Positions 12,451-61,211 of a stretch of DNA of 64,000 nt are shown piece by piece. The notes under the pieces were generated by a model that saw only the letters and a list, made by a program, of their open reading frames with translations, ran no database searches and was not told the DNA's origin. How positions within the stretch are numbered: position 1 is the first letter of the stretch; each line of letters starts with the position of its first letter. The translations under genes and the position numbers were made by a program. Location: the NCBI RefSeq assembly GCF_055900595.2, contig NZ_CM148325.1. One strand, written 5' to 3'.

Positions 12451-12549
12451 GCCGGATGCGGCGTGAGCGCCTTACCCGGCCTACAAAATCTTGCTAATAC
12501 AAAATGTTGCATTATTGGCTGTAGGCCTGATAAGCGCTGCGCATCAGGC
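12451..12549. repeat. BIME: two inverted REP units
   Basis: GCCGGATGCGGCGTGAGCGCCTTACCCGGCCTACA (12451-12485) and the inverted unit TGTAGGCCTGATAAGCGCTGCGCATCAGGC (12520-12549) between convergent yaeF and nlpE. Confidence 0.85.
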
Positions 12550-12580
12550 AATTTTTCGTTTGTTTCTGTCTCACGATGGC

Positions 12581-13291
12581 TTACTGCCCCAAACTACTGC
12601 AATCCTGGTGCGGGTAAAATTTACCTGCCGTATCGGGCGCAAATACTTTGGTCGGCGCACCAGTATCCGGATTAGCCTCAAGCGTAAAGTGACCTTCTAC
12701 TGACAGTAACACTGGTTTCTCGCTGTTGCCGCGGGCAGCCAAATAGCCCCGTTCCAGCTCAGCGTTATTCGCTACCATGAAACGTTTTCCGGTCGCACAA
12801 TCAGTAAAGGTTGCCGCATCAGCCATATAAAAATACATGCCGCGTAGAGTCATCGGCGTCACTGGCAGGCTGGATTTTGCCGGTTCCAGTGTATAGTTGA
12901 ACTGCGATTCGATCGGATTGCCTTCACGATCGAGCATCTCCAGCGCATCTCCTTTCGCCCGATAATATGACTTTTCACCTTTACTGTCGGTTAATACCAG
13001 TTTGTCAGCGGTTCGCGCCCATGTACCGTAGGAGGCGAAAGAGGAAGGTTCTTCACGAGCCCCCAGATAACGCTCATTCATCACCCAGGTTCCATCTTTT
13101 TCGAGGAACAGAGAGGTTTCGATGCCTTCGCAATCAGCACACGGCAGCACGCCGCGCCAGCTTTGCGGCATCGGCTTCAGTTCAGCGGCCTGCGCCGGAG
13201 AAAGCGTATCGACTTCGGCTCGATTATTACATCCCATCAGAGTAAAGAGGCTGATTACAGCCATCGCTGTCACTATCGCTTTTTTCACCAT
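12581..13291 (-). CDS. nlpE: Outer-membrane lipoprotein NlpE (Cpx-activating sensor)
   Basis: 236-aa ORF; lipobox LMGC; CXXC motif (CADC). Confidence 0.93.
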   Translation of the reverse strand: MVKKAIVTAMAVISLFTLMGCNNRAEVDTLSPAQAAELKPMPQSWRGVLPCADCEGIETSLFLEKDGTWVMNERYLGAREEPSSFASYGTWARTADKLVLTDSKGEKSYYRAKGDALEMLDREGNPIESQFNYTLEPAKSSLPVTPMTLRGMYFYMADAATFTDCATGKRFMVANNAELERGYLAARGNSEKPVLLSVEGHFTLEANPDTGAPTKVFAPDTAGKFYPHQDCSSLGQ

Positions 13292-43489: not shown

Positions 43490-44302
43490 ATGATCACACG
43501 CAGGCGTTTTTTACAGGCTGCCGCCGCGACGTTAACGGTGAGTTCAGGTTTCGGTTATATGCATTACCTGGAACCCGGCTGGCTTGAATTAAGCCATCAC
43601 CGCTTCGCCTTTTTTGAAGAAAAAGCCGCACCATTCAAAATTCTGTTTCTGGCCGATCTCCATTACTCTCGTTTTGTTCCTTTAAGCCTGATTTCTGACG
43701 CTATTGCCCTTGGCGTAGCGCAAAAACCTGATTTGATTTTGCTGGGTGGCGATTATGTTTTATTTGATATGCCGCTGAATTTTTCGGCGTTCAGTGACGT
43801 ACTCTCTCCCCTTGCCAAATGTGCACCGACATTTGCCTGTTTTGGCAATCACGATCACCCCGTGGGTACAGAGAAAAATCGCTTAATTGGCGAGGCGTTA
43901 AAATCGGCGGGGATCACTGTGTTGTTTAACCAGGCAACGGTAATCGCCACATCAAAACGGCAATTTGAACTGGTTGGCACTGGTGATTTATGGGCCGGAC
44001 AATGCAAACCACCTCCCGCCAGCGAAGCAAATCTGCCTCGTCTGGTGCTGGCACATAATCCCGACAGCAAAGAAGTCATACGTGATGAACCCTGGGATCT
44101 GATGCTGTGCGGCCATACTCACGGCGGGCAACTGCGCGTACCGTTGGTTGGTGAACCTTTTGCCCCTGTCGAAGATAAACGTTACGTCGCCGGATTAAAT
44201 GCCTTTGGCGAACGACACATCTACACAACCCGTGGCGTGGGCAGTTTGTATGGTTTGCGTCTGAACTGCCGCCCGGAAGTAACGATGCTGGAACTGGTGT
44301 AG
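43490..44302 (+). CDS. yaeI: Metallophosphoesterase (phosphodiesterase YaeI), Tat-type signal
   Basis: ORF track 43487..44302; twin-arginine motif TRRRFLQ; metallophosphatase motifs (GDY, GNHD, GHTH). Confidence 0.88.
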   Translation: MITRRRFLQAAAATLTVSSGFGYMHYLEPGWLELSHHRFAFFEEKAAPFKILFLADLHYSRFVPLSLISDAIALGVAQKPDLILLGGDYVLFDMPLNFSAFSDVLSPLAKCAPTFACFGNHDHPVGTEKNRLIGEALKSAGITVLFNQATVIATSKRQFELVGTGDLWAGQCKPPPASEANLPRLVLAHNPDSKEVIRDEPWDLMLCGHTHGGQLRVPLVGEPFAPVEDKRYVAGLNAFGERHIYTTRGVGSLYGLRLNCRPEVTMLELV

Positions 44303-44463
44303 AACGTGAATTTTATCGCCAGAATAAAGCAGGTAATTTTTTGATTTTTACGCCATGATAGAAGTCTGGAAGAAAAAGGCTTTCTGCGATCACAGTCGAG
44401 CCGGGCAGGCCAGGCCAAATGCTAAAATAAGCACAATTTACTGACTCATTTTGAGGTAACGCT

Positions 44464-44850
44464 ATGTACGACAATCTGAAAAGTCTGGGTATTACCAATC
44501 CTGAAGAAATTGATCGTTACAGCCTCCGGCAGGAAGCCAACAACGATATTCTGAAAATCTATTTCCAGAAAGACAAAGGCGAGTTTTTCGCCAAGAGCGT
44601 GAAGTTTAAATATCCGCGTCAGCGTAAAACGGTCGTCGCTGATGGTGTGGGTCAGGGTTATAAAGAAGTCCAGGAAATCAGCCCGAATCTACGGTATATC
44701 ATTGATGAGCTAGATCAAATCTGCCAGCGTGACCGCAGCGAAGTTGATCTTAAGCGTAAGATCCTCGACGACTTACGTCACCTGGAGTCAGTAGTAACCA
44801 ATAAGATCAGCGAGATTGAAGCCGATCTGGAAAAACTGACGCGTAAATAA
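44464..44850 (+). CDS. yaeH: UPF0325 protein YaeH
   Basis: 128-aa ORF; conserved neighbour of yaeI and cdaR. Confidence 0.9.
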
Positions 44851-44863
44851 TGTCATTCTGTGG

Positions 44864-44895
44864 GCCGGGTAAAGTCTCACCCGGCTGTAATTTTG
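44864..44895 (+). terminator. Terminator hairpin between convergent yaeH and cdaR
   Basis: GCCGGGT-AAAGTCTC-ACCCGGC hairpin followed by TGTAATTTTGT. Confidence 0.55.
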
Positions 44896-44903
44896 TAATC
44901 GAC

Positions 44904-46061
44904 CTACCGCTCTTCATCCAGTTGTAACGCCACATACAGCAGCAACCTGTCATCAAAATTGCCCAAATCAAGCCCGGTCAGTTCCGATATACGATTAAGC
45001 CGATACTCAAGAGTATTACGATGAATAAACAACGCCTTTGACGTTGCCAGCGGTTGCACATTGTGGCGAAACCACGCCGCCAGCGTTCGCCGCAGCAAGC
45101 CGTTATTGTCCATCGCTTTCAGCCGCGCCAGCGGTCGCGCCAGTTCGTTGGCCTGCCAATCGCCACGCAAACTGTCGAGCAACACAGGCAACATCAAATC
45201 CTGATAAAAATAGCAGCGACTTTCGGGCATCCGCTGTTTACCCACCACCATCGTCGTTTTCGCCGTACGATAAGAGCGGGCAATACTGCCTGGTCCGGTA
45301 AAATAGTTACCCAGCGAAACGCGAAAACGTAGCTGACCATACTCTTTCATGCGGGCAATCAGTTGTTCAACTCGCTTACGATGATCTTCTGCATCCCAGC
45401 GCCCAAACGAATTCAACGCCGGTTTCAACACCACCATTTCGGTCAGTGAAACAATCGCCACCAGATTATTACGCTCGGGTGTAGTCAGCGCGTTTTGCAG
45501 TTGCTGTAACTCCGCCATTGCGCTATCCACGCCAAGTTGACCGCTATCGACCTCAACAATAGCCACCACTCGCGGTTGATTGAGATCGACCCCCAGCCGT
45601 TGCGCCCAATCAGTAAGTGCGGGAGTATTCTCCTCGGCCTGAAGGAGGTTCATCACCAGTTCTTCCCGCAAACGGCTATCCTGCGCCAACAGGTGCATCA
45701 ACCGCGACTGTTCCAGCATCATTTCAGCCGTCATGCAGACCAGTTCGCCATATTTACGCAGATTCTCTGGTTCACCTGTCAGGCCAATTACGCCGACAAT
45801 TTCACCTTCCAGCCGTAACGGTAGATTAATCCCCTGCCGCACACCGTGCAGATGACGTGCCACCGCGTCATCGATATCGACGACTCGTCCCTGTGAAAGT
45901 ACCAGCAATGCACCTTCGTGCAATTCACCAATACGCTCACGATCGCCGCTGCCGATAATACGCCCGCGGGCATCCATTACGTTAATATTGGTATCAATGA
46001 TGCGCATGGTGCGCGCCACGATATCCTGCGCCATTTTGGTATCAAGATGCCAGCCAGCCAT
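44904..46061 (-). CDS. cdaR: Carbohydrate diacid regulator CdaR (PucR/CdaR family)
   Basis: ORF track 44904..46079; start placed at MAGWHLDTKMAQDIV (385 aa); C-terminal HTH. Confidence 0.9.
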   Translation of the reverse strand: MAGWHLDTKMAQDIVARTMRIIDTNINVMDARGRIIGSGDRERIGELHEGALLVLSQGRVVDIDDAVARHLHGVRQGINLPLRLEGEIVGVIGLTGEPENLRKYGELVCMTAEMMLEQSRLMHLLAQDSRLREELVMNLLQAEENTPALTDWAQRLGVDLNQPRVVAIVEVDSGQLGVDSAMAELQQLQNALTTPERNNLVAIVSLTEMVVLKPALNSFGRWDAEDHRKRVEQLIARMKEYGQLRFRVSLGNYFTGPGSIARSYRTAKTTMVVGKQRMPESRCYFYQDLMLPVLLDSLRGDWQANELARPLARLKAMDNNGLLRRTLAAWFRHNVQPLATSKALFIHRNTLEYRLNRISELTGLDLGNFDDRLLLYVALQLDEER

Positions 46062-55079: not shown

Positions 55080-57062
55080 TTAACGGCTCTGCTTTCTCAA
55101 CAAATAGATAAAATACGGCGCGCCGATAAAGGTCGACAGCAGCCCCGCTGGGATCTGGAATGGAAACAGCACCATCCGCCCACACCAGTCAGCGAACACC
55201 AGCAGTAATCCCCCCACCAGCGCCGAAATCACAATATGCGGCATCGTCCGTCGAAAGCCCATCATCCGTGCGATATGCGGTGCCATCAGGCCAACAAAAC
55301 TCAACGGCCCGATGGTCATTGTCGCGGTCGCCGTCAGGCAAGCCGCCAGCAGCAGTAGCGCAATTCGCGTCGGCGTCAGCGCCATTCCCACGGCTCGTGC
55401 GGTATCACCTCCCAGCGGTAAAATGGTCAGCCAGCGGCGGCACAGCGGGGTAATCGCCAGCAAAATCACCATCACAATTCCGGTGCGCCAGACCTGCGCC
55501 TCGGTCGCGTTGTAGGTCGAACCGGAAATCCAGGTCAGAACTTGCGCCATTCGCGGGTCACCACTTGCCTGCAACATCATCAAAAGCATGGTGAACGCGG
55601 TACTTAACGCCATCCCCGCCAGTAACATGCGGTGTGGAGAAAATCCACCGCGTCCGGCGGCGATCATAATGATCAACAGCGTCACCGCCGCCCCGAGACT
55701 TCCCGCGGGTAACAGCCAGCCAAAGGCATTACCCGGCACCAGAAACAGCATTAACACCACGCCAAACGCCGCGCCGGAGCTAATCCCCAGCACTTCCGGG
55801 CTTGCCATCGGGTTGCCGGTCAGCCGCTGAATAATACAGCCCGCCACCGCCAGCATGACGCCCGCAAACAGCGCCGCCATAATTCGCGGCCAGCGCCAGG
55901 GCATCAAATCCTCGAGCAGCGCCCCGCTCGCCCACGTCCAGCCGTGCGCATCACGACCAAACGACAGCGCCACCACCACAGCAATTATCAGCAGCACACC
56001 GCCAGCAAGGGCAAACGCCAGCACATGTTGGCGTTCAGTCGCGACACGATCGTTGGCCTTCATATCCGGCGCACTGATGCTGCGTAAACGCGGCAGCAGC
56101 CACAGTAACAGCGGCGCACCTATCAACGCCGTCATCGAACCGGTAGAAACTTCCATCCACACGCGAGTCAGCCAGAGGATGATTTGATCGGAAAGCCAGA
56201 GGATCAGCGCACCAATCAGTGACGCCAGCAGCAGTCTTGGCAGCAGACGCCGCGCCCCCAGCATTTTTGCCAGCAGCGGCGCGAACAACCCGATAAAGCC
56301 GATAATCCCCACCGCGTTCACCAGCAGAGCACTGATGACTATCGCCAGCGACAGCGCCGCCAGACGCGCGAGCGATAAAGCCAGTCCGAGATTACGCGCC
56401 ACGCCATCATCAAGCCCCATCAGGGTTAATGGACGAAGTAGCAGTAACGTCAACATCACGCCGCCCAGCAGCTGTGGCCATAAACGCTCAACGCCGCCCC
56501 AGTCGGTTTGCGTCAGCGTTCCGGTACTCCACAGGAACATGCTTTGTAGCTGGTCGTGATGGAAGATAACCAGTAACTGATTGATTGCCCCGCAATAAAG
56601 GCTCACCACAAGCCCCGCGAGGATCAGCGTTACCGGAGAAAGCCGTTTCCCCCACGCGACGCCAAAGACAATTAAGCCAACCACACAAGCCCCTGCCAAT
56701 GCAGCAAACTGGCTCGCCATAGCACCAGGGATCGCCCAGAGCGTGGTGACGGTAATCCCCAGTTGCGCGCCTGTAGCAACGCCCAACGTGGTCGGTTCCG
56801 CCAGCGGGTTACGTAACACTTGCTGAAACAGCACGCCCACCAGTCCCAGACCCGCGCCCACCAGCAGCGAAATCGCCAGACGTGGCAGCAAGCTGTAGTG
56901 AAAAATCATCTGCTCGATGACGTCAATATCCGGCGACCAGGCAGCCTGCGCCCACTGGCTACGCGGCAGCGCCTGAGAGAAGTTCATCCAGGTGAGCACC
57001 GCTGCGGCAACCACCAACAGCGCCAGCAATAATGCCGGGAAAAGCGCAATACGTTTACTCAC
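55080..57062 (-). CDS. fhuB: Ferric hydroxamate ABC transporter permease (duplicated)
   Basis: 660-aa hydrophobic ORF with two FecCD-like halves. Confidence 0.95.
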   Translation of the reverse strand: MSKRIALFPALLLALLVVAAAVLTWMNFSQALPRSQWAQAAWSPDIDVIEQMIFHYSLLPRLAISLLVGAGLGLVGVLFQQVLRNPLAEPTTLGVATGAQLGITVTTLWAIPGAMASQFAALAGACVVGLIVFGVAWGKRLSPVTLILAGLVVSLYCGAINQLLVIFHHDQLQSMFLWSTGTLTQTDWGGVERLWPQLLGGVMLTLLLLRPLTLMGLDDGVARNLGLALSLARLAALSLAIVISALLVNAVGIIGFIGLFAPLLAKMLGARRLLPRLLLASLIGALILWLSDQIILWLTRVWMEVSTGSMTALIGAPLLLWLLPRLRSISAPDMKANDRVATERQHVLAFALAGGVLLIIAVVVALSFGRDAHGWTWASGALLEDLMPWRWPRIMAALFAGVMLAVAGCIIQRLTGNPMASPEVLGISSGAAFGVVLMLFLVPGNAFGWLLPAGSLGAAVTLLIIMIAAGRGGFSPHRMLLAGMALSTAFTMLLMMLQASGDPRMAQVLTWISGSTYNATEAQVWRTGIVMVILLAITPLCRRWLTILPLGGDTARAVGMALTPTRIALLLLAACLTATATMTIGPLSFVGLMAPHIARMMGFRRTMPHIVISALVGGLLLVFADWCGRMVLFPFQIPAGLLSTFIGAPYFIYLLRKQSR

Positions 57063-57949
57063 GCTTTACCTCCGATGGCGTTATCCAGAATACGCACAAA
57101 GTGCATTGCCGAGAGCGTCGCACCATAAAACCAGACTGCGGGGACGCGCTGAAAGCGTCCGGCACGGACAAACGGCATGGCCTGCCACAGCGGGGTTGCC
57201 ATTAGTGCGTCCATGTCTTTGCTGTTGTCGTGATCAAAACAGAGCACATCAACGTCCTTATACGCTGCCAGACGATCGATACTGACGGCAGTACTGCCCC
57301 AGAAGTTGGTTTCTCCTTGCCAGGCATTTGGGATGCCGTACTCATCGAGAATTTCCTGGAACAGGCTGTTCGGGCCGAAGACCAGCATATGGCGTGGATC
57401 GATAAGCGTCGTCAGCAATAACGGGCGCGCACCACGCTTCACAAAACGGGGTTTCATGCTGCGGATGAAGTCTTCATAGTGCGCTAAATGCGTTTCTGCT
57501 GCGCTTTGCAGGTTAAGCAAATCTGCCATTTCCGTCAGCGATTTACGCGCCATCGCCAGCGGCTGTTTGCCGTCGCTGAAGTTAAATCCGCGCCCCGGCG
57601 CAATACGTGCCAGCATTTCTGGCGAAGGGCCATACCCTGCCGACCAGACCATAAACGACGGCTTCATTTCGGTCAGCAGTTCAAGGTTAGGTTCTGTCCG
57701 CAAACCGACGTCAATCACCGATTCAGGTAATGGCGGTTCGCTGACCCACAGGCGATAGTTGATGGTATCCGCCACGCCGTAAGGCACGATGCCTAGCGCC
57801 AGCAGTAATTCCACCGGCAACCACTCCAGCGCCACAATACGCTTTGGATCAATAGCCGCCGCGCGGGCGGTATTCATCTGCCATAACAACGGAGATAGCG
57901 CCATCGCTGTTAACAGTCGACGGCGCGTAATTAGAGGTAAGCCACTCAT
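57059..57949 (-). CDS. fhuD: Ferric hydroxamate periplasmic binding protein
   Basis: ORF track 57059..57952 (alternative Met one codon upstream); Tat-like RRRLL signal; 4-nt overlap with fhuB. Confidence 0.93.
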   Translation of the reverse strand: MSGLPLITRRRLLTAMALSPLLWQMNTARAAAIDPKRIVALEWLPVELLLALGIVPYGVADTINYRLWVSEPPLPESVIDVGLRTEPNLELLTEMKPSFMVWSAGYGPSPEMLARIAPGRGFNFSDGKQPLAMARKSLTEMADLLNLQSAAETHLAHYEDFIRSMKPRFVKRGARPLLLTTLIDPRHMLVFGPNSLFQEILDEYGIPNAWQGETNFWGSTAVSIDRLAAYKDVDVLCFDHDNSKDMDALMATPLWQAMPFVRAGRFQRVPAVWFYGATLSAMHFVRILDNAIGGKA

Positions 57950-58746
57950 CAATAAACAAAACTCACAGGTGCAGCACCCGCCGGATGCGGCAAAATTCCC
58001 ATCGGGATGCCATAAATCATTTCGAGGGTTTCGCCGCGCATAATTTCCGCAGGCGTTCCCTGCGCAATCATTTCACCGCCGCGCAGGGCGACCAGATAAT
58101 CACAGTAACGCGCAGCCATATTGATATCGTGCAGCACGGCAATGACCGTCAGGCCACGCTCCTGACTTAAACGGTGCACCAGCGCCAGCACATCAACCTG
58201 GTGGGCGATATCCAGCGCCGAGGTCGGTTCGTCGAGCAACAGACAACGGCTATCCTGCGCCACCAGCATGGCGATCCACGCCCGTTGACGTTCGCCGCCA
58301 GAGAGGCTATCGACCAGCCGATGCGCCAGCGGTTTTAAGCCAACCAGCGAGATAGCCTCTTCGACCTTTTCGCGATCTGCCGCGCCAAAGCGCCCCAGCG
58401 CGCCATGCCACGGGTAACGACCAATCGCCACCAGTTCACGCACCGTCATCCCTTCTGCCGGAGGAAGCTGCTGCGGCAAATAAGCCACTTTGCGAGCAAA
58501 CGCTTTGCTGCTCCAGCTTTCCAGCGGCTGGGCATCAAGAAGAATCTCCCCTTCTGACGGTGGCTGATGGCGGCCCAACATTTTTAACAGCGTGGATTTA
58601 CCAGAGCCGTTGTGACCAATCAGACCGGTCACTTTCCCGGCAGGAAAGGTTAACGACAGCGGATGCAAAAGCGTGCGCCCGGGCACACGAAAGGAGATAT
58701 TACGCAGTGCAAAAGTGGTATCGGAATGATTCGTGTATTCCTGCAT
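57949..58746 (-). CDS. fhuC: Ferric hydroxamate ABC transporter ATPase
   Basis: ORF track 57949..58851; start placed at MQEYTNHSDTTFALRNISF (265 aa); Walker A GHNGSGKST, signature LSGGERQR. Confidence 0.94.
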   Translation of the reverse strand: MQEYTNHSDTTFALRNISFRVPGRTLLHPLSLTFPAGKVTGLIGHNGSGKSTLLKMLGRHQPPSEGEILLDAQPLESWSSKAFARKVAYLPQQLPPAEGMTVRELVAIGRYPWHGALGRFGAADREKVEEAISLVGLKPLAHRLVDSLSGGERQRAWIAMLVAQDSRCLLLDEPTSALDIAHQVDVLALVHRLSQERGLTVIAVLHDINMAARYCDYLVALRGGEMIAQGTPAEIMRGETLEMIYGIPMGILPHPAGAAPVSFVY

Positions 58747-58796
58747 AACAGCCAACTTGTGAAACGGGCACGGAAATCCGTGCCCCAAAAGAGAAA

Positions 58797-60992
58797 TTAG
58801 AAACGGAAGGTTGCGGTTGCAACGACCTGACGTTCTGCGCCCCAGTAACATGCATAATCACGATAGCAACTGGAGACATATTCGCGGTCGAACAGGTTAT
58901 TTACGTTAACACCAACAGAAGAACCAGGCATACCGAAACGAGCAAGATCATATTTTATCATTGCATCAACCAAGGTATACCCCCCAACATTGAATGTCTG
59001 ATTGGTCTTATCACCCGTAGTGTAGAAACTTGAGGTGTCGCCAAAATAACGTGCCCCTGCACCAAGACTCAGACCACTAAGAGCTGTTTCGTGGAAAGTG
59101 TAATCTGCCCACAGCGAAGCCATATTTCGGGGGACCTCTGCCGGGCGTTTACCCTTGTACAATGTATCTTTGGTGTATTCAGCATCGGTGTAGCTGTATG
59201 CCGCAGTCACATTGATATTAGCGTTGACAGCTGCTTTAGCCTCAATCTCAAAGCCACGAGAACGAATCTCCCCCCCTTGTACGCTAAACAAAGTATTACT
59301 TGGATCTGCAGTCAGATTTTTGTCTTTCGTTAATTGGAATACCGAGGCAGTGACAGTGACAGGCGTATCTTTTGGTACGTATTTGACACCTGCTTCGTAC
59401 TGCTTACCGCGAGAAGGATCAAACGGTTTACCTTCTTTAGTCGCTCCAGATACTGGCTCGAAGGATTCGCTATAACTGAAATAAGGTGAAATACCATTAT
59501 CGAACAGATAATTAATACCACCTCTCCAGGTGAACTGCTGATCGTTAATTTCATCCAAAGAACTCGTTGAACGAGTATAGGTAGAGGTTTTCGCAAAATC
59601 GTAACGACCACCCAGCGTCAATACCCACTTATTCCACTCAGACTGATCCTGAATATAAAGGCCTGTCTGTTCCTGACGGTTAATTACCGCATATGGGAAA
59701 TTGATATTGATATTGGCGTTACCGTACTGTGGATCCGTCATGCTAATCGGATTAGCAGTACCATAGTTTGCATCAATATCGTTACGCATTCGCAGGTAAT
59801 CCACGCCAGTAAGCAAAGTATGCGCTACAGCACCGGTAGCAAAGTTGGACTGTAGTTGCGTATCAACAGTAAACGAATTTAAATCTTCGTCTGAACGTAC
59901 ATAAGCACGGCTAATTTGCGCTGGCGCGATGTAACCATTGCCATATACTGCATCGTAGAGTGTATGAATGCGGGTATAGCGCAGATTCTGACGTACAGTA
60001 AAAGTATCATTAAATTCATGAGCAAAACTGTAGCCAATTAATTGTTGACGACGAGACATCTTATTATCTTTCTCGCCTTCATTGAAATCTGTTGGCAATT
60101 TGTGCCAGCTACCATTTGCATCCTGATAGGGAACAACAGTTCCCTGGCGCGGTAACCAACCATAATAGCCCGCATCGGGATCACTCTGGAAATTACTCAG
60201 GAAAGTGAAATCCGTTTTATCATCAGGACGCCAACTGAATGAGGGAGCAACTGCATACCTTGTAGTTTTTGCGTACTTTTGTTGCGCATCCTGACTACGT
60301 CCTAATCCCGTCAAACGATATGACCAAACGCCATCATCATCTATTGCATCACTAAAATCGAATCCGGTCTGCCAAAGATTATCCGTTCCCATTTTGAACT
60401 GGATCTCTTTAATCGGATCCGTTGAAGGCCGTTTGCTTACCATGCTCACTACTCCGCCCGGATGGCTTTTACCATACAGTACGGATACTGGGCCACGGAG
60501 TAATTCCACACGCTCAAGGAAATAAGGATCAATAGAGGCTTCAGAGTAGTTATCCCCCTGAAGTTTTAAGCCATCCAGATATTGGTTAGTATTTACTGTA
60601 CTGGCTGTAGTAAATCCACGTATAGAAACAACATCATACGTTGTTGAACTACCACGCGTTGAAAAGACACTTGGCGTATAATCCAGAGCTTCTTTTACCG
60701 TTGCGGGTTGTTTGATATCCATCTCTTCCCGGGTCACAACCGAAATAGACTGCGGCGTTTTTTCAATTGGTGTATCCGTTTTAGTCGCAGTAGCAGAGTG
60801 CTTCGCCGCAATAGTTGCAGCTGGCCCCCATGCGCTTTCTTGCGGCGCTGGTGCAGCGGTAACGGTGATAGTGTCTTCTTTCGGTTCAACCGCTGCCTGT
60901 GCATAAACAGACATGCCGCTAACCGCTGTGGCTACTACAACTGCGATTTTACGCAGTGAGTGTTTTGGCTGAGCAGTTTTGGAACGCGCCAT
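58797..60992 (-). CDS. fhuA: TonB-dependent ferrichrome outer-membrane transporter FhuA, divergent mosaic allele
   Basis: 731-aa ORF. The first ~62 residues (signal peptide, TonB-box DTITV) and last ~11 residues (AERQVVATATFRF) match K-12 FhuA as I recall it; the interior is clearly homologous but heavily substituted and 16 aa shorter, and its DNA is AT-rich. Confidence 0.9.
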   Translation of the reverse strand: MARSKTAQPKHSLRKIAVVVATAVSGMSVYAQAAVEPKEDTITVTAAPAPQESAWGPAATIAAKHSATATKTDTPIEKTPQSISVVTREEMDIKQPATVKEALDYTPSVFSTRGSSTTYDVVSIRGFTTASTVNTNQYLDGLKLQGDNYSEASIDPYFLERVELLRGPVSVLYGKSHPGGVVSMVSKRPSTDPIKEIQFKMGTDNLWQTGFDFSDAIDDDGVWSYRLTGLGRSQDAQQKYAKTTRYAVAPSFSWRPDDKTDFTFLSNFQSDPDAGYYGWLPRQGTVVPYQDANGSWHKLPTDFNEGEKDNKMSRRQQLIGYSFAHEFNDTFTVRQNLRYTRIHTLYDAVYGNGYIAPAQISRAYVRSDEDLNSFTVDTQLQSNFATGAVAHTLLTGVDYLRMRNDIDANYGTANPISMTDPQYGNANININFPYAVINRQEQTGLYIQDQSEWNKWVLTLGGRYDFAKTSTYTRSTSSLDEINDQQFTWRGGINYLFDNGISPYFSYSESFEPVSGATKEGKPFDPSRGKQYEAGVKYVPKDTPVTVTASVFQLTKDKNLTADPSNTLFSVQGGEIRSRGFEIEAKAAVNANINVTAAYSYTDAEYTKDTLYKGKRPAEVPRNMASLWADYTFHETALSGLSLGAGARYFGDTSSFYTTGDKTNQTFNVGGYTLVDAMIKYDLARFGMPGSSVGVNVNNLFDREYVSSCYRDYACYWGAERQVVATATFRF

Positions 60993-61014
60993 TGGTATAT
61001 CTCTGATGTAAAGT

Positions 61015-61065
61015 GAATGATAACGTAAACGAGAATGATTATTATAAAGATGAGATAATATTCGA
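61015..61065 (-). promoter_or_regulatory. Fur-box region in the fhuA promoter
   Basis: Clustered GATAAT-type hexamers (TGATAACG, GAGAATGATTATTATAA, GATAATATT) 25-75 nt upstream of the fhuA start. Confidence 0.55.
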
Positions 61066-61171
61066 AACGCTGGCGGGTTCGCAAGCGGTACGCAATCTGA
61101 GCATTCCTGAGGGGTTAATAAACAATCAGATGAAAAGAAAGGGTTAATACTTTGGGTAGGATGTTATTTTA

Positions 61172-61194
61172 CCGGATGGCGACTCGCCATCCGG
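61172..61194. other. Palindrome downstream of mrcB
   Basis: CCGGATGGCG-A-CTCGCCATCCGG 10-bp inverted repeat; no U tract in the mrcB transcript sense. Confidence 0.35.
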
Positions 61195-61211
61195 TATGTC
61201 ACGCTTAGACG

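What the first reader, a model, noticed from the sequence alone, without database searches (positions are those of the whole stretch)
58835..60805. fhuA carries a low-GC, highly divergent ~2 kb core flanked by native ends (mosaic receptor allele)
The encoded protein keeps the K-12 signal peptide, TonB-box and first ~62 residues and the last ~11 residues, but everything between is heavily substituted relative to K-12 FhuA as I recall it, and the protein is 16 aa shorter. In 60-nt blocks I counted by eye the interior is roughly 33-45% G+C, against about 60% in adjacent fhuC. All flanking spacings are K-12-like. The pattern fits homologous replacement of the gene interior by a segment from a lower-GC donor, plausibly under phage/colicin selection, and is the only part of the window that looks horizontally acquired.
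Basis: partly seen in the sequence, partly recalled or inferred. Interest (0 to 1): 0.7.

Follow-up and report, generated by a model that had tools for sequence, protein, structure and literature searches.

The report
Known minority fhuA receptor allele (E4)

Summary
fhuA (58797-60992, minus strand, 731 aa) has a 1,958-nt core (58846-60803, codons 64-716) that is ~63% identical to K-12 in DNA and 66% in protein. The window background is 96.8 +/- 2.2%. Core GC is 44% and GC3 is 0.38, the lowest of 31 long ORFs. The first 189 nt and last 49 nt are near-identical in every E. coli class compared.

The interpretation, homologous replacement of the gene interior, is essentially right but already published. 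This allele is cluster E4 (Group II) of Wang et al. 2018, with an insertion in L3 and L10 and a deletion in L4. The same group calls the phenomenon 'mosaic evolution' of outer-membrane proteins.

Added here:
- Exact junctions.
- Frequency of ~91 of 5,426 complete genomes, in two subtypes.
- Recent transfer between diverged lineages: window vs EPEC E2348/69 differ at 10/2461 positions in the fhuA tract against 198/3560 in fhuCDB.
- The orthologous position in 71 of 80 other species.
- No plasmid or phage carrier.
- No donor: the nearest non-E. coli protein is 86% identical, and none of the 80 relatives analysed is AT-rich at silent sites.

The low GC3, shared with class E3, remains unexplained. 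Altered phage and colicin sensitivity is inferred from loop changes, not tested.

The parts
58797..60992 (-). fhuA coding sequence, 731 aa, intact; ferrichrome outer-membrane transporter, allele class E4
   Evidence: ORF list. NCBIfam FhuA equivalog NF007465 scores 1330 bits against a cutoff of 803. Matches solved E. coli FhuA structures at E about 1e-290 over residues 34-731.
58846..60803 (-). Divergent low-GC core (codons 64-716: most of the plug and the whole barrel except the last strand)
   Evidence: 714 of 1916 aligned positions differ from K-12. Junctions were read from the nucleotide alignment. Core GC is 0.442 and GC3 is 0.379.
60804..60992 (-). 5' conserved end: signal peptide, TonB box (DTITV at 60861-60875) and mature residues 1-30; near-identical in all E. 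coli allele classes
   Evidence: Residues 1-63 are identical in the E1, E3 and E4 proteins. There are 3 differences from K-12 in the 297 nt of 61100-60804.
58797..58845 (-). 3' conserved end: last 15 codons (WGAERQVVATATFRF, the final beta-strand) plus the stop codon
   Evidence: No difference in any of the six comparison strains (E1, two E2, E3 and both E4 subtypes).
58640..61100 (-). Tract shared almost identically with EPEC E2348/69 (fhuA, about 110 nt upstream and about 150 nt of fhuC); the likely recent intraspecies recombination import
   Evidence: 10 of 2461 positions differ, against 198 of 3560 in the adjoining fhuC, fhuD and fhuB; Fisher p = 5e-34. Sliding identity.
60733..60803 (-). 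First 71 nt of the core, identical in class E3 (L003) but with 14 differences in K-12; a nested mosaic between classes
   Evidence: Nucleotide alignment.
60096..60131 (-). Loop L3 region with a 4-residue insertion relative to K-12 (PYQDANGSWHKL)
   Evidence: Alignment. Corresponds to 'Indel 1', the marker of cluster E4 in bioRxiv 10.1101/320069.
59901..59942 (-). Loop L4 remnant: 17 of the 22 K-12 residues 318-339 are absent, including Cys318, Cys329 and Tyr325
   Evidence: Wang et al. report 'a deletion in L4' for E4.
59691..59756 (-). Loop L5, almost completely replaced (3 of 19 aligned residues identical, 8 indel columns)
59268..59324 (-). Loop EL8 (K-12 546-564): 11 of 19 identical; tip F557 to L and E554 to S
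   Evidence: Loop limits from PMC9586334.
58995..59042 (-). Loop L10 region with a 5-residue insertion (SSFYT) relative to K-12
   Evidence: Alignment. Corresponds to 'Indel 2' of cluster E4.

Best explanation
The window carries FhuA allele class E4, one of four deeply divergent fhuA classes that coexist at the same chromosomal site in E. coli.

Step 1 (inferred): at some earlier time, homologous recombination replaced codons 64-716 of an E. coli fhuA with the orthologous segment from another enterobacterial lineage of the 'Group II' FhuA type. The crossovers fell in the conserved start of the plug and in the conserved last beta-strand.

Step 2 (shown by sequence comparison): the resulting chimeric cassette has since moved between E. 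coli lineages by ordinary homologous recombination, with crossovers in the conserved flanks. The clone represented by the window acquired, or shares, a roughly 2.5-kb tract that is almost identical to that of EPEC E2348/69.

The product is a functional TonB-dependent hydroxamate-siderophore transporter. It keeps the E. coli signal peptide, TonB box, plug, 22-strand barrel and last strand, and it is under purifying selection. Its extracellular loops L3, L4, L5, L7, L8 and L10 are rebuilt. This should change or abolish recognition by FhuA-dependent phages (T1, T5, phi80 and relatives), colicin M and microcin J25. That consequence is inferred, not tested. Frequency-dependent selection by such agents is the most likely reason several classes persist.
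For: - Sharp junctions at 60803/60804 and 58845/58846, with near-identical ends in all classes.
- The core is 37% different from K-12, against a 3% background.
- dS is saturated against E1, E3 and the nearest other genera, while dN is 0.10 to Trabulsiella and Enterobacter and 0.31 to K-12.
- E4 lies inside a clade of FhuA from Enterobacter, Pseudescherichia, Trabulsiella, Cedecea, Klebsiella and Raoultella with 100% bootstrap support, separate from E1/E2 and E3.
- These relatives sit at the orthologous mrcB-fhuA-fhuCD position in 71 of 80 species, so they are alleles or orthologs rather than paralogs.
- There is one copy per genome, always chromosomal, and no plasmid or phage carries it.
- Recent intraspecies transfer: 0.4% against 5.6% divergence from E2348/69, p = 5e-34.
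- Function retained: intact ORF; FhuA equivalog score of 1330 against a cutoff of 803; dN/dS of 0.06 between the two E4 subtypes; R81, Y116, Y244, W246 and Y313 conserved.
- Loop changes.
- Literature: E1-E4 clusters and exchange between species (bioRxiv 10.1101/320069); fhuA allelic replacement in ST410 (PMC6715731); divergent fhuA associated with microcin J25 resistance in natural E. coli (PMC10926693); L4, L5 and L8 provide most hydrogen bonds to T5 pb5 (PMC9586334).
Against: - No donor was found. The best non-E. coli protein among 5.8 billion clusters is 86% identical, so the direction and date of the interspecies step are inferred only.
- GC3 of 0.38 is not matched by any of the 80 relatives analysed, so 'import from a Group II enterobacterium' does not by itself explain the composition.
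- Class E3 vs Salmonella S2 shows about the same DNA identity as the flanking genes. At least that class could therefore be an old polymorphism rather than a recent import.
- The position of E4 within Group II is unresolved (support of 52% or less).
- No phenotype data for E4 were found.
Confidence: 0.85

Rival explanations
1. Ancient balanced polymorphism. The FhuA classes predate the split of the enterobacterial genera and have been kept at the locus by balancing selection. The E4 core would then be an old resident of Escherichia rather than an import, and recombination would only shuffle it among strains.
For: - Three super-classes each contain many genera, and several genera (Enterobacter, Buttiauxella, Klebsiella, Scandinavium, Kosakonia, Citrobacter) appear in two or three of them, all at the same locus.
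- E3 vs Salmonella S2 has about 80% DNA identity, equal to that of the flanking genes.
- No donor closer than 86% exists for E4.
- The two E4 subtypes differ by dS 0.145, which implies long residence or two imports.
Against: - A long-resident E. coli gene should have E. coli-like silent-site composition, but GC3 is 0.38 against a median of 0.58.
- The junctions with E. coli-type ends are abrupt.
- The gene tree within each super-class does not follow the genus tree.
- The published analysis favours exchange after speciation.
Confidence: 0.1
2. In-situ hyper-divergence. The native fhuA interior diverged within E. coli under strong positive selection from phages and colicins, with no import.
For: fhuA has been reported as positively selected in E. 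coli (cited). The loops are the most changed parts.
Against: - Divergence is not confined to the loops: the plug is 67% identical and the strands 57-70%.
- dS is saturated.
- The composition shift affects silent sites.
- E4 is closer to other genera (85%) than to K-12 (66%).
- Within E4, dN/dS is 0.06.
Confidence: 0.02
3. Assembly or annotation artefact, or a paralog mistaken for fhuA.
For: None found.
Against: - The same allele is found in 90 complete genomes from independent projects, always between mrcB and fhuC.
- There is a single place per genome.
- The exact protein is on record from 1000 or more contigs.
Confidence: 0.01

Closest known systems
FhuA cluster E4 (super-group II) of Wang et al. 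[quoted passage not shown]
   Same: The diagnostic features match. There are unique insertions at their Indel 1 (L3) and Indel 2 (L10), a deletion in L4, and strong changes in L2, L5, L6 and L7. The cluster stands apart from E1/E2/S1 and E3/S2 and groups with FhuA of other Enterobacteriaceae.
   Different: The allele itself shows nothing different. The paper gives no junction coordinates, GC or codon data, or population frequency. It also concludes there was no significant exchange in the near past, whereas the window and E2348/69 comparison shows a recent transfer. The correspondence was judged from the described indels; their sequence tables were not available.
'Mosaic evolution' of E. coli outer-membrane proteins (Cao et al. 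2025, PMC12175518: FhuA, LamB, OmpA, OmpC, OmpF, FadL and others)
   Same: A conserved locus and fold, a limited number of variant types, recombination that is incongruent with strain phylogeny, and variable parts that lie in extracellular loops.
   Different: That model describes conserved genes with local highly variable regions. Here the whole 1,958-nt interior is exchanged as one block, including the plug and the membrane strands (57-70% identity), between two fixed junctions.
fhuA allelic replacement in the E. coli ST410 B4/H24RxC clone (PMC6715731)
   Same: One fhuA class was replaced by another (<74% nt identity) through recombination within a clonal lineage. [quoted passage not shown]
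   Different: That event involved WP_039023099.1 and class E3 (WP_000124383.1, identical to locus L003), not E4.
E. coli K-12 FhuA (class E1; solved structures 1BY3, 2FCP, 8A60)
   Same: Same family and architecture, with identical signal peptide, TonB box and last strand. The L11 cysteine pair and several ferrichrome-pocket residues are conserved.
   Different: Identity is 66%. L4 is shortened by 17 residues with loss of its disulfide, L5 is replaced, and there are insertions in L3 and L10. Substitutions include F115N, F557L and E554S.

Membership tests
FhuA (ferrichrome TonB-dependent outer-membrane transporter) | Scores above the curated cut-off of NCBI's FhuA equivalog model, and better than for any other receptor model | tested here: met
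   NF007465 scores 1330 bits against a cutoff of 803, full length 1-731. The next model, FoxA, scores 601 against a cutoff of 1300.
FhuA (ferrichrome TonB-dependent outer-membrane transporter) | Plug plus 22-strand barrel architecture homologous to solved FhuA structures | tested here: met
   Sequence match to PDB FhuA chains at E about 1e-290 over residues 34-731. Pfam Plug and TonB_dep_Rec_b-barrel are on record for the cluster. My own AlphaFold model was unusable (pLDDT 49), so the fold is supported by homology only.
FhuA (ferrichrome TonB-dependent outer-membrane transporter) | TonB box and genomic linkage to fhuCDB at the mrcB-fhuA-fhuCDB locus | tested here: met
   The DTITV region is identical to K-12. 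The gene order and the 219-nt and 50-nt spacers match K-12.
FhuA (ferrichrome TonB-dependent outer-membrane transporter) | Transports ferrichrome; ligand-pocket residues are conserved | tested here: inconclusive
   R81, Y116, Y244, W246 and Y313 are conserved. F115N, G99T, Q100V, Y315N and F391Y differ. Part of the residue list comes from memory of Ferguson et al. 1998. Transport itself cannot be tested here.
FhuA cluster E4 / Group II (Wang et al. 2018) | Unique insertions in L3 (Indel 1) and L10 (Indel 2), with deletion in L4 | tested here: met
   There is a 4-aa insertion at 60096-60131, a 5-aa insertion at 58995-59042, and L4 is reduced by 17 residues. Description of E4.
FhuA cluster E4 / Group II (Wang et al. 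2018) | Clusters with FhuA of other enterobacterial genera rather than with E1/E2/E3 | tested here: met
   NJ tree of the core gives 100% bootstrap support for the clade containing E4 plus Enterobacter, Trabulsiella, Pseudescherichia, Cedecea, Klebsiella and Raoultella.
Receptor for phages T1, T5 and phi80, colicin M, microcin J25 and albomycin (properties of K-12 FhuA) | Presence of the K-12 loop determinants: L4 for T1 and phi80; L8 (F557) for T5 and SO1-like phages; L4, L5 and L8 contacts with pb5 | tested here: not met
   L4 is largely deleted, L5 is replaced, and F557L and E554S are present. Determinants are taken from PMC10373560 and PMC9586334. This predicts altered sensitivity. Actual sensitivity cannot be tested with these tools.

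The most novel reading that the evidence does not exclude
The AT-rich silent sites of the two minority E. coli classes are a real signal and not an incidental donor trait. E4 has GC3 of 0.38 and E3 has 0.40, while their closest relatives in other genera have 0.56-0.78. Two readings are possible. Either both classes reached E. coli from one still unsampled low-GC enterobacterial reservoir that maintains several FhuA classes, or AT-richness is itself favoured in circulating receptor cassettes, for example through H-NS-type silencing or expression tuning of foreign alleles. Either reading would address what the 'mosaic evolution' papers call the unknown source of variable outer-membrane-protein segments.
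Probability: 0.2. Interest if true: 0.5.

Novelty: already known. Interest (0 to 1): 0.3.

Why it matters
FhuA is the entry point for several model phages (T1, T5, phi80 and many newer isolates), for colicin M and microcin J25, and for sideromycin-type antibiotics such as albomycin. Which FhuA class a strain carries should therefore affect phage-therapy host range, bacteriocin sensitivity and uptake of siderophore-antibiotic conjugates.

The existence of class E4 and its recombinational origin are already published, so the finding does not open a new question. The useful additions are practical:
- Exact cassette boundaries.
- A frequency estimate of about 1.7% of complete genomes, including the prototype EPEC strain E2348/69.
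- Evidence that the cassette still moves between lineages.
- A composition anomaly with no sampled donor.

Tried and rejected
1. AlphaFold2 model of the E4 protein from a 39-sequence alignment: mean pLDDT was 49. It was too poor to define loops or to run fold searches, so I used homology to solved FhuA and published loop limits instead.
2. Donor search. One scan covered one genome for each of 100,044 species and another covered 5.8 billion protein clusters. Nothing was closer than 85-86% outside E. coli and Shigella, and the 304-member E4 cluster is named E. coli or Shigella only.
3. Low-GC donor hypothesis: GC3 was computed for fhuA in 80 related species, and none was below 0.485. Salmonella S2 was fetched to test whether class E3's low GC3 is inherited from its closest relative; it is not (0.562).
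4. Paralog hypothesis: rejected by synteny and by the single copy per genome.
5. Plasmid or phage vehicle: none found. Most hits in 'plasmids' are multi-megabase records, which look like mislabelled chromosomes.
6. I first thought the host might be a cryptic Escherichia clade, because nearly all genomes are 96.6-97.3% identical in dnaE. However, relatives at 98.8-99.2% exist, so I make no such claim.
7. A first bootstrap run with Biopython's distance calculator timed out. It was redone with numpy distances.
8. A literature search for the protein accession WP_000124389 found nothing. No paper reporting phage or colicin phenotypes of E4 strains was found.
Full report
**1. What is in the sequence**

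The window is an E. coli chromosomal segment running hrpB-mrcB-fhuACDB-hemL and onward to an rRNA operon, colinear with K-12. fhuA lies at 58797-60992 on the minus strand as an intact 731-aa ORF. In 500-nt chunks the window is 96.8 +/- 2.2% identical to K-12, with a minimum of 86.9% outside fhuA. The chunks inside fhuA fall to 66-74%. A 100-nt sliding comparison shows 95-100% identity up to about 60800, then 53-74% down to about 58850, then 99-100% again.

In a seven-strain nucleotide alignment the first position that differs from K-12 is 60803 (first base of codon 64) and the last is 58846. The divergent core is therefore 58846-60803, or 1,958 nt. Protein identity to K-12 FhuA is 66%, and the protein is 16 residues shorter.

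The composition claim also holds. The core is 44.2% G+C with GC3 of 0.379. That compares with GC3 of 0.535 for K-12 fhuA and 0.60-0.70 for fhuC, fhuD and fhuB. fhuA has the lowest GC3 of all 31 ORFs of at least 250 aa in the window. The spacers to mrcB (219 nt) and fhuC (50 nt) equal those of K-12.

**2. It is a bona fide, functional fhuA**

- The protein scores 1330 bits on NCBI's FhuA equivalog model, whose cut-off is 803.
- It aligns to solved E. coli FhuA structures over residues 34-731 at E about 1e-290.
- The signal peptide, TonB box, mature residues 1-30 and the last strand are identical to K-12.
- Between the two subtypes of this allele class, dN is 0.0086 and dS is 0.145, which indicates purifying selection.

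**3. Population picture**

Among 5,426 complete E. coli genomes, fhuA falls into four classes.

| Class | Example | Genomes | Share |
|---|---|---|---|
| K-12 class (at least 95% nt identity) | K-12 | about 3,700 | 68% |
| K-12-related class (86-87% nt identity) | DS566, Z0117EC0013 | about 1,066 | 20% |
| 729-aa class | L003 (WP_000124383.1) | 563 | 10% |
| Window class | this window | about 91 | 1.7% |

The window class has two subtypes. One is at least 99% identical (14 genomes). It comprises the 8-genome clone that the window belongs to, four E2348/69 assemblies and one pig isolate. The other is about 96.3% identical (77 genomes from pigs, poultry, cattle, humans, a cat and a frog). There is always one copy, always on the chromosome. 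The exact window protein is on record from at least 1000 contigs, all named E. coli or Shigella.

**4. This is already in the literature**

Wang et al. 2018 (bioRxiv 10.1101/320069) describe four E. coli FhuA clusters, E1-E4, and two Salmonella clusters, S1 and S2. E1 (K-12), S1 and E2 form one group, and E3 and S2 form another. E4 stands alone and joins 'Group II' with other Enterobacteriaceae. E4 is diagnosed by insertions in L3 and L10 and a deletion in L4. They conclude that fhuA was exchanged between enterobacterial strains after speciation.

The window allele shows exactly those indels, so it is E4. The same group later named the pattern 'mosaic evolution' of outer-membrane proteins and stated that the sources of the variable segments are unknown (PMC12175518). 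[quoted passage not shown] Divergent fhuA has also been associated with natural microcin J25 resistance (PMC10926693). None of these papers gives junctions, GC content or codon data.

**5. Origin of the core**

A scan of one genome per prokaryotic species found 80 relatives. The closest are Trabulsiella odontotermitis (85%) and Enterobacter, Lelliottia and Pseudescherichia (83%). A search of 5.8 billion protein clusters found the E. coli cluster at 98% and then nothing above 86%.

In 71 of 80 species the relative lies between mrcB and fhuCD, so these are orthologs or alleles and not paralogs. A neighbour-joining tree of the core places E4 inside a clade with those genera at 100% bootstrap support. 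E4 sits on its own long branch, and its sister group is unresolved (support of 52% or less).

Searches with K-12 FhuA and with class E3 show that each class has close relatives in several other genera. The K-12 type is 89-93% identical to proteins in some Salmonella, Citrobacter, Enterobacter and Buttiauxella. E3 is 95% identical to the main Salmonella cluster. Several genera appear in two or three super-classes. FhuA classes are therefore shared across genera at one locus, as Wang et al. reported.

**6. Two layers of recombination**

All E. coli classes share nearly identical sequence from about 61070 to 60804 and from 58845 to about 58640. Beyond those limits the window's clone is 5-6% different from every strain compared, with dS of 0.21-0.24 in fhuD and fhuB.

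The contrast with E2348/69 is the clearest evidence:

| Region compared with E2348/69 | Differences |
|---|---|
| 61100-58640 (fhuA tract) | 10 of 2,461 positions |
| Adjoining fhuC, fhuD and fhuB | 198 of 3,560 positions |

Fisher's exact test gives p = 5e-34. In this strain, then, the 'native ends' most likely travelled with the core in a recent exchange of about 2.5 kb between E. coli lineages. The interspecies event that created the chimera, with junctions at codons 64 and 716, is older.

Class E3 shares the first 71 nt of the core with E4 with no differences (K-12 has 14), which shows further recombination between classes. No plasmid or phage carries the core, and no mobile-element gene interrupts the locus. 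Plain homologous recombination is therefore the inferred mechanism. The means of DNA entry is unknown.

**7. The unexplained part**

None of the 80 relatives has low GC3; the range is 0.485-0.82. Class E3 in E. coli is also AT-rich at silent sites (0.40). Its 95%-identical Salmonella counterpart has GC3 of 0.56 and the same roughly 80% DNA identity to E. coli as the flanking genes. E4 also shows lower GC1 and slightly more AT-codon amino acids than its relatives, as expected after long residence in an AT-richer genome.

That two unrelated minority classes share the anomaly is not accounted for.

**8. Likely functional consequence (inferred)**

Mapped on K-12 mature numbering:

| Region | Change relative to K-12 |
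|---|---|
| L4 | Loses 17 of 22 residues, including the Cys318-Cys329 pair and Tyr325 |
| L5 | Keeps 3 of 19 aligned residues |
| EL8 | F557L and E554S |
| EL7 | 50% identical |
| L3 and L10 | Insertions |
| Plug | F115 becomes N |

In the T5 pb5-FhuA structure, most hydrogen bonds involve EL4, EL5 and EL8, and pb5 touches F115 and Y116 (PMC9586334). L8 is essential for T5 and SO1-like phages, and L4 for T1 (PMC10373560).

Divergence is not limited to the loops: the plug is 67% identical and the strands are 57-70%. Ferrichrome-pocket residues R81, Y116, Y244, W246 and Y313 are kept, while G99, Q100, Y315 and F391 differ (part of that list is from memory). The prediction is a working hydroxamate transporter with an altered phage and bacteriocin receptor surface. 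No phenotype data for E4 were found.

**9. Verdict**

The allele and its evolutionary interpretation are already published, so novelty is 'already known' and interest is modest. The remaining value lies in the exact cassette boundaries, the evidence for ongoing inter-lineage transfer, and the composition anomaly with no sampled donor.

Noticed in passing
window 55080-58639 (fhuC 3' part, fhuD, fhuB): This segment is 5-6% different from every E. coli compared, with dS of 0.21-0.24. Only the 8 genomes of the window's clone are at least 99% identical. The next best are 97.4% and the bulk are 94-95%. By contrast the dnaE region has relatives at 99.0-99.2% and a bulk at about 97%. The segment next to fhuA may itself be an older import from a divergent Escherichia lineage.
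   Followed up: partly
L086:687-5568 (E2348/69) and L088:877-5781 (Z0117EC0013); the corresponding site in the window is 60993-61211: Some E. coli carry a four-gene chaperone-usher fimbrial operon inserted between mrcB and fhuA. The window strain lacks it and has the K-12-like 219-nt spacer, even though its fhuA is almost identical to that of E2348/69.
   Followed up: no
L003:3001-5190 (E. coli class E3) vs L089:3001-5190 (Salmonella S2): The proteins are 95% identical, but the DNA is only about 80% identical, the same as the flanking genes. GC3 is 0.40 in E. coli against 0.56 in Salmonella. So a second E. coli fhuA class has AT-rich silent sites that its closest relative lacks.
   Followed up: partly
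L008:4001-6205 (Cedecea davisae) and L024:3337-5544 (metagenome-assembled genome): In these genomes fhuA has GC3 of about 0.49-0.50, while the flanking DNA is 59% G+C. The fhuA composition dip may therefore recur in other genera.
   Followed up: no
window 43501-45000 and 12501-13000: These are the other least K-12-like 500-nt chunks in the window (86.9%, 88.5% with indels, and 90.9%). By K-12 coordinates they fall around yaeH-yaeI and near the yaeF-nlpE region. They are much milder than fhuA and were not examined.
   Followed up: no
window 60804-61070 and 58640-58845: The sequences immediately flanking the variable core are more uniform across all E. coli classes than the genome background. 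There are 15 polymorphic columns in 296 and 3 in 206, against 161 in 1640 further downstream. This fits repeated crossovers there or strong constraint on the promoter, signal peptide, TonB box and fhuC start.
   Followed up: partly
H31 (NZ_CP026085.1, DH5alpha): In this laboratory strain record the K-12 fhuA match is split by an IS4-like element. This is the known fhuA disruption of that lineage and is unrelated to the finding.
   Followed up: no
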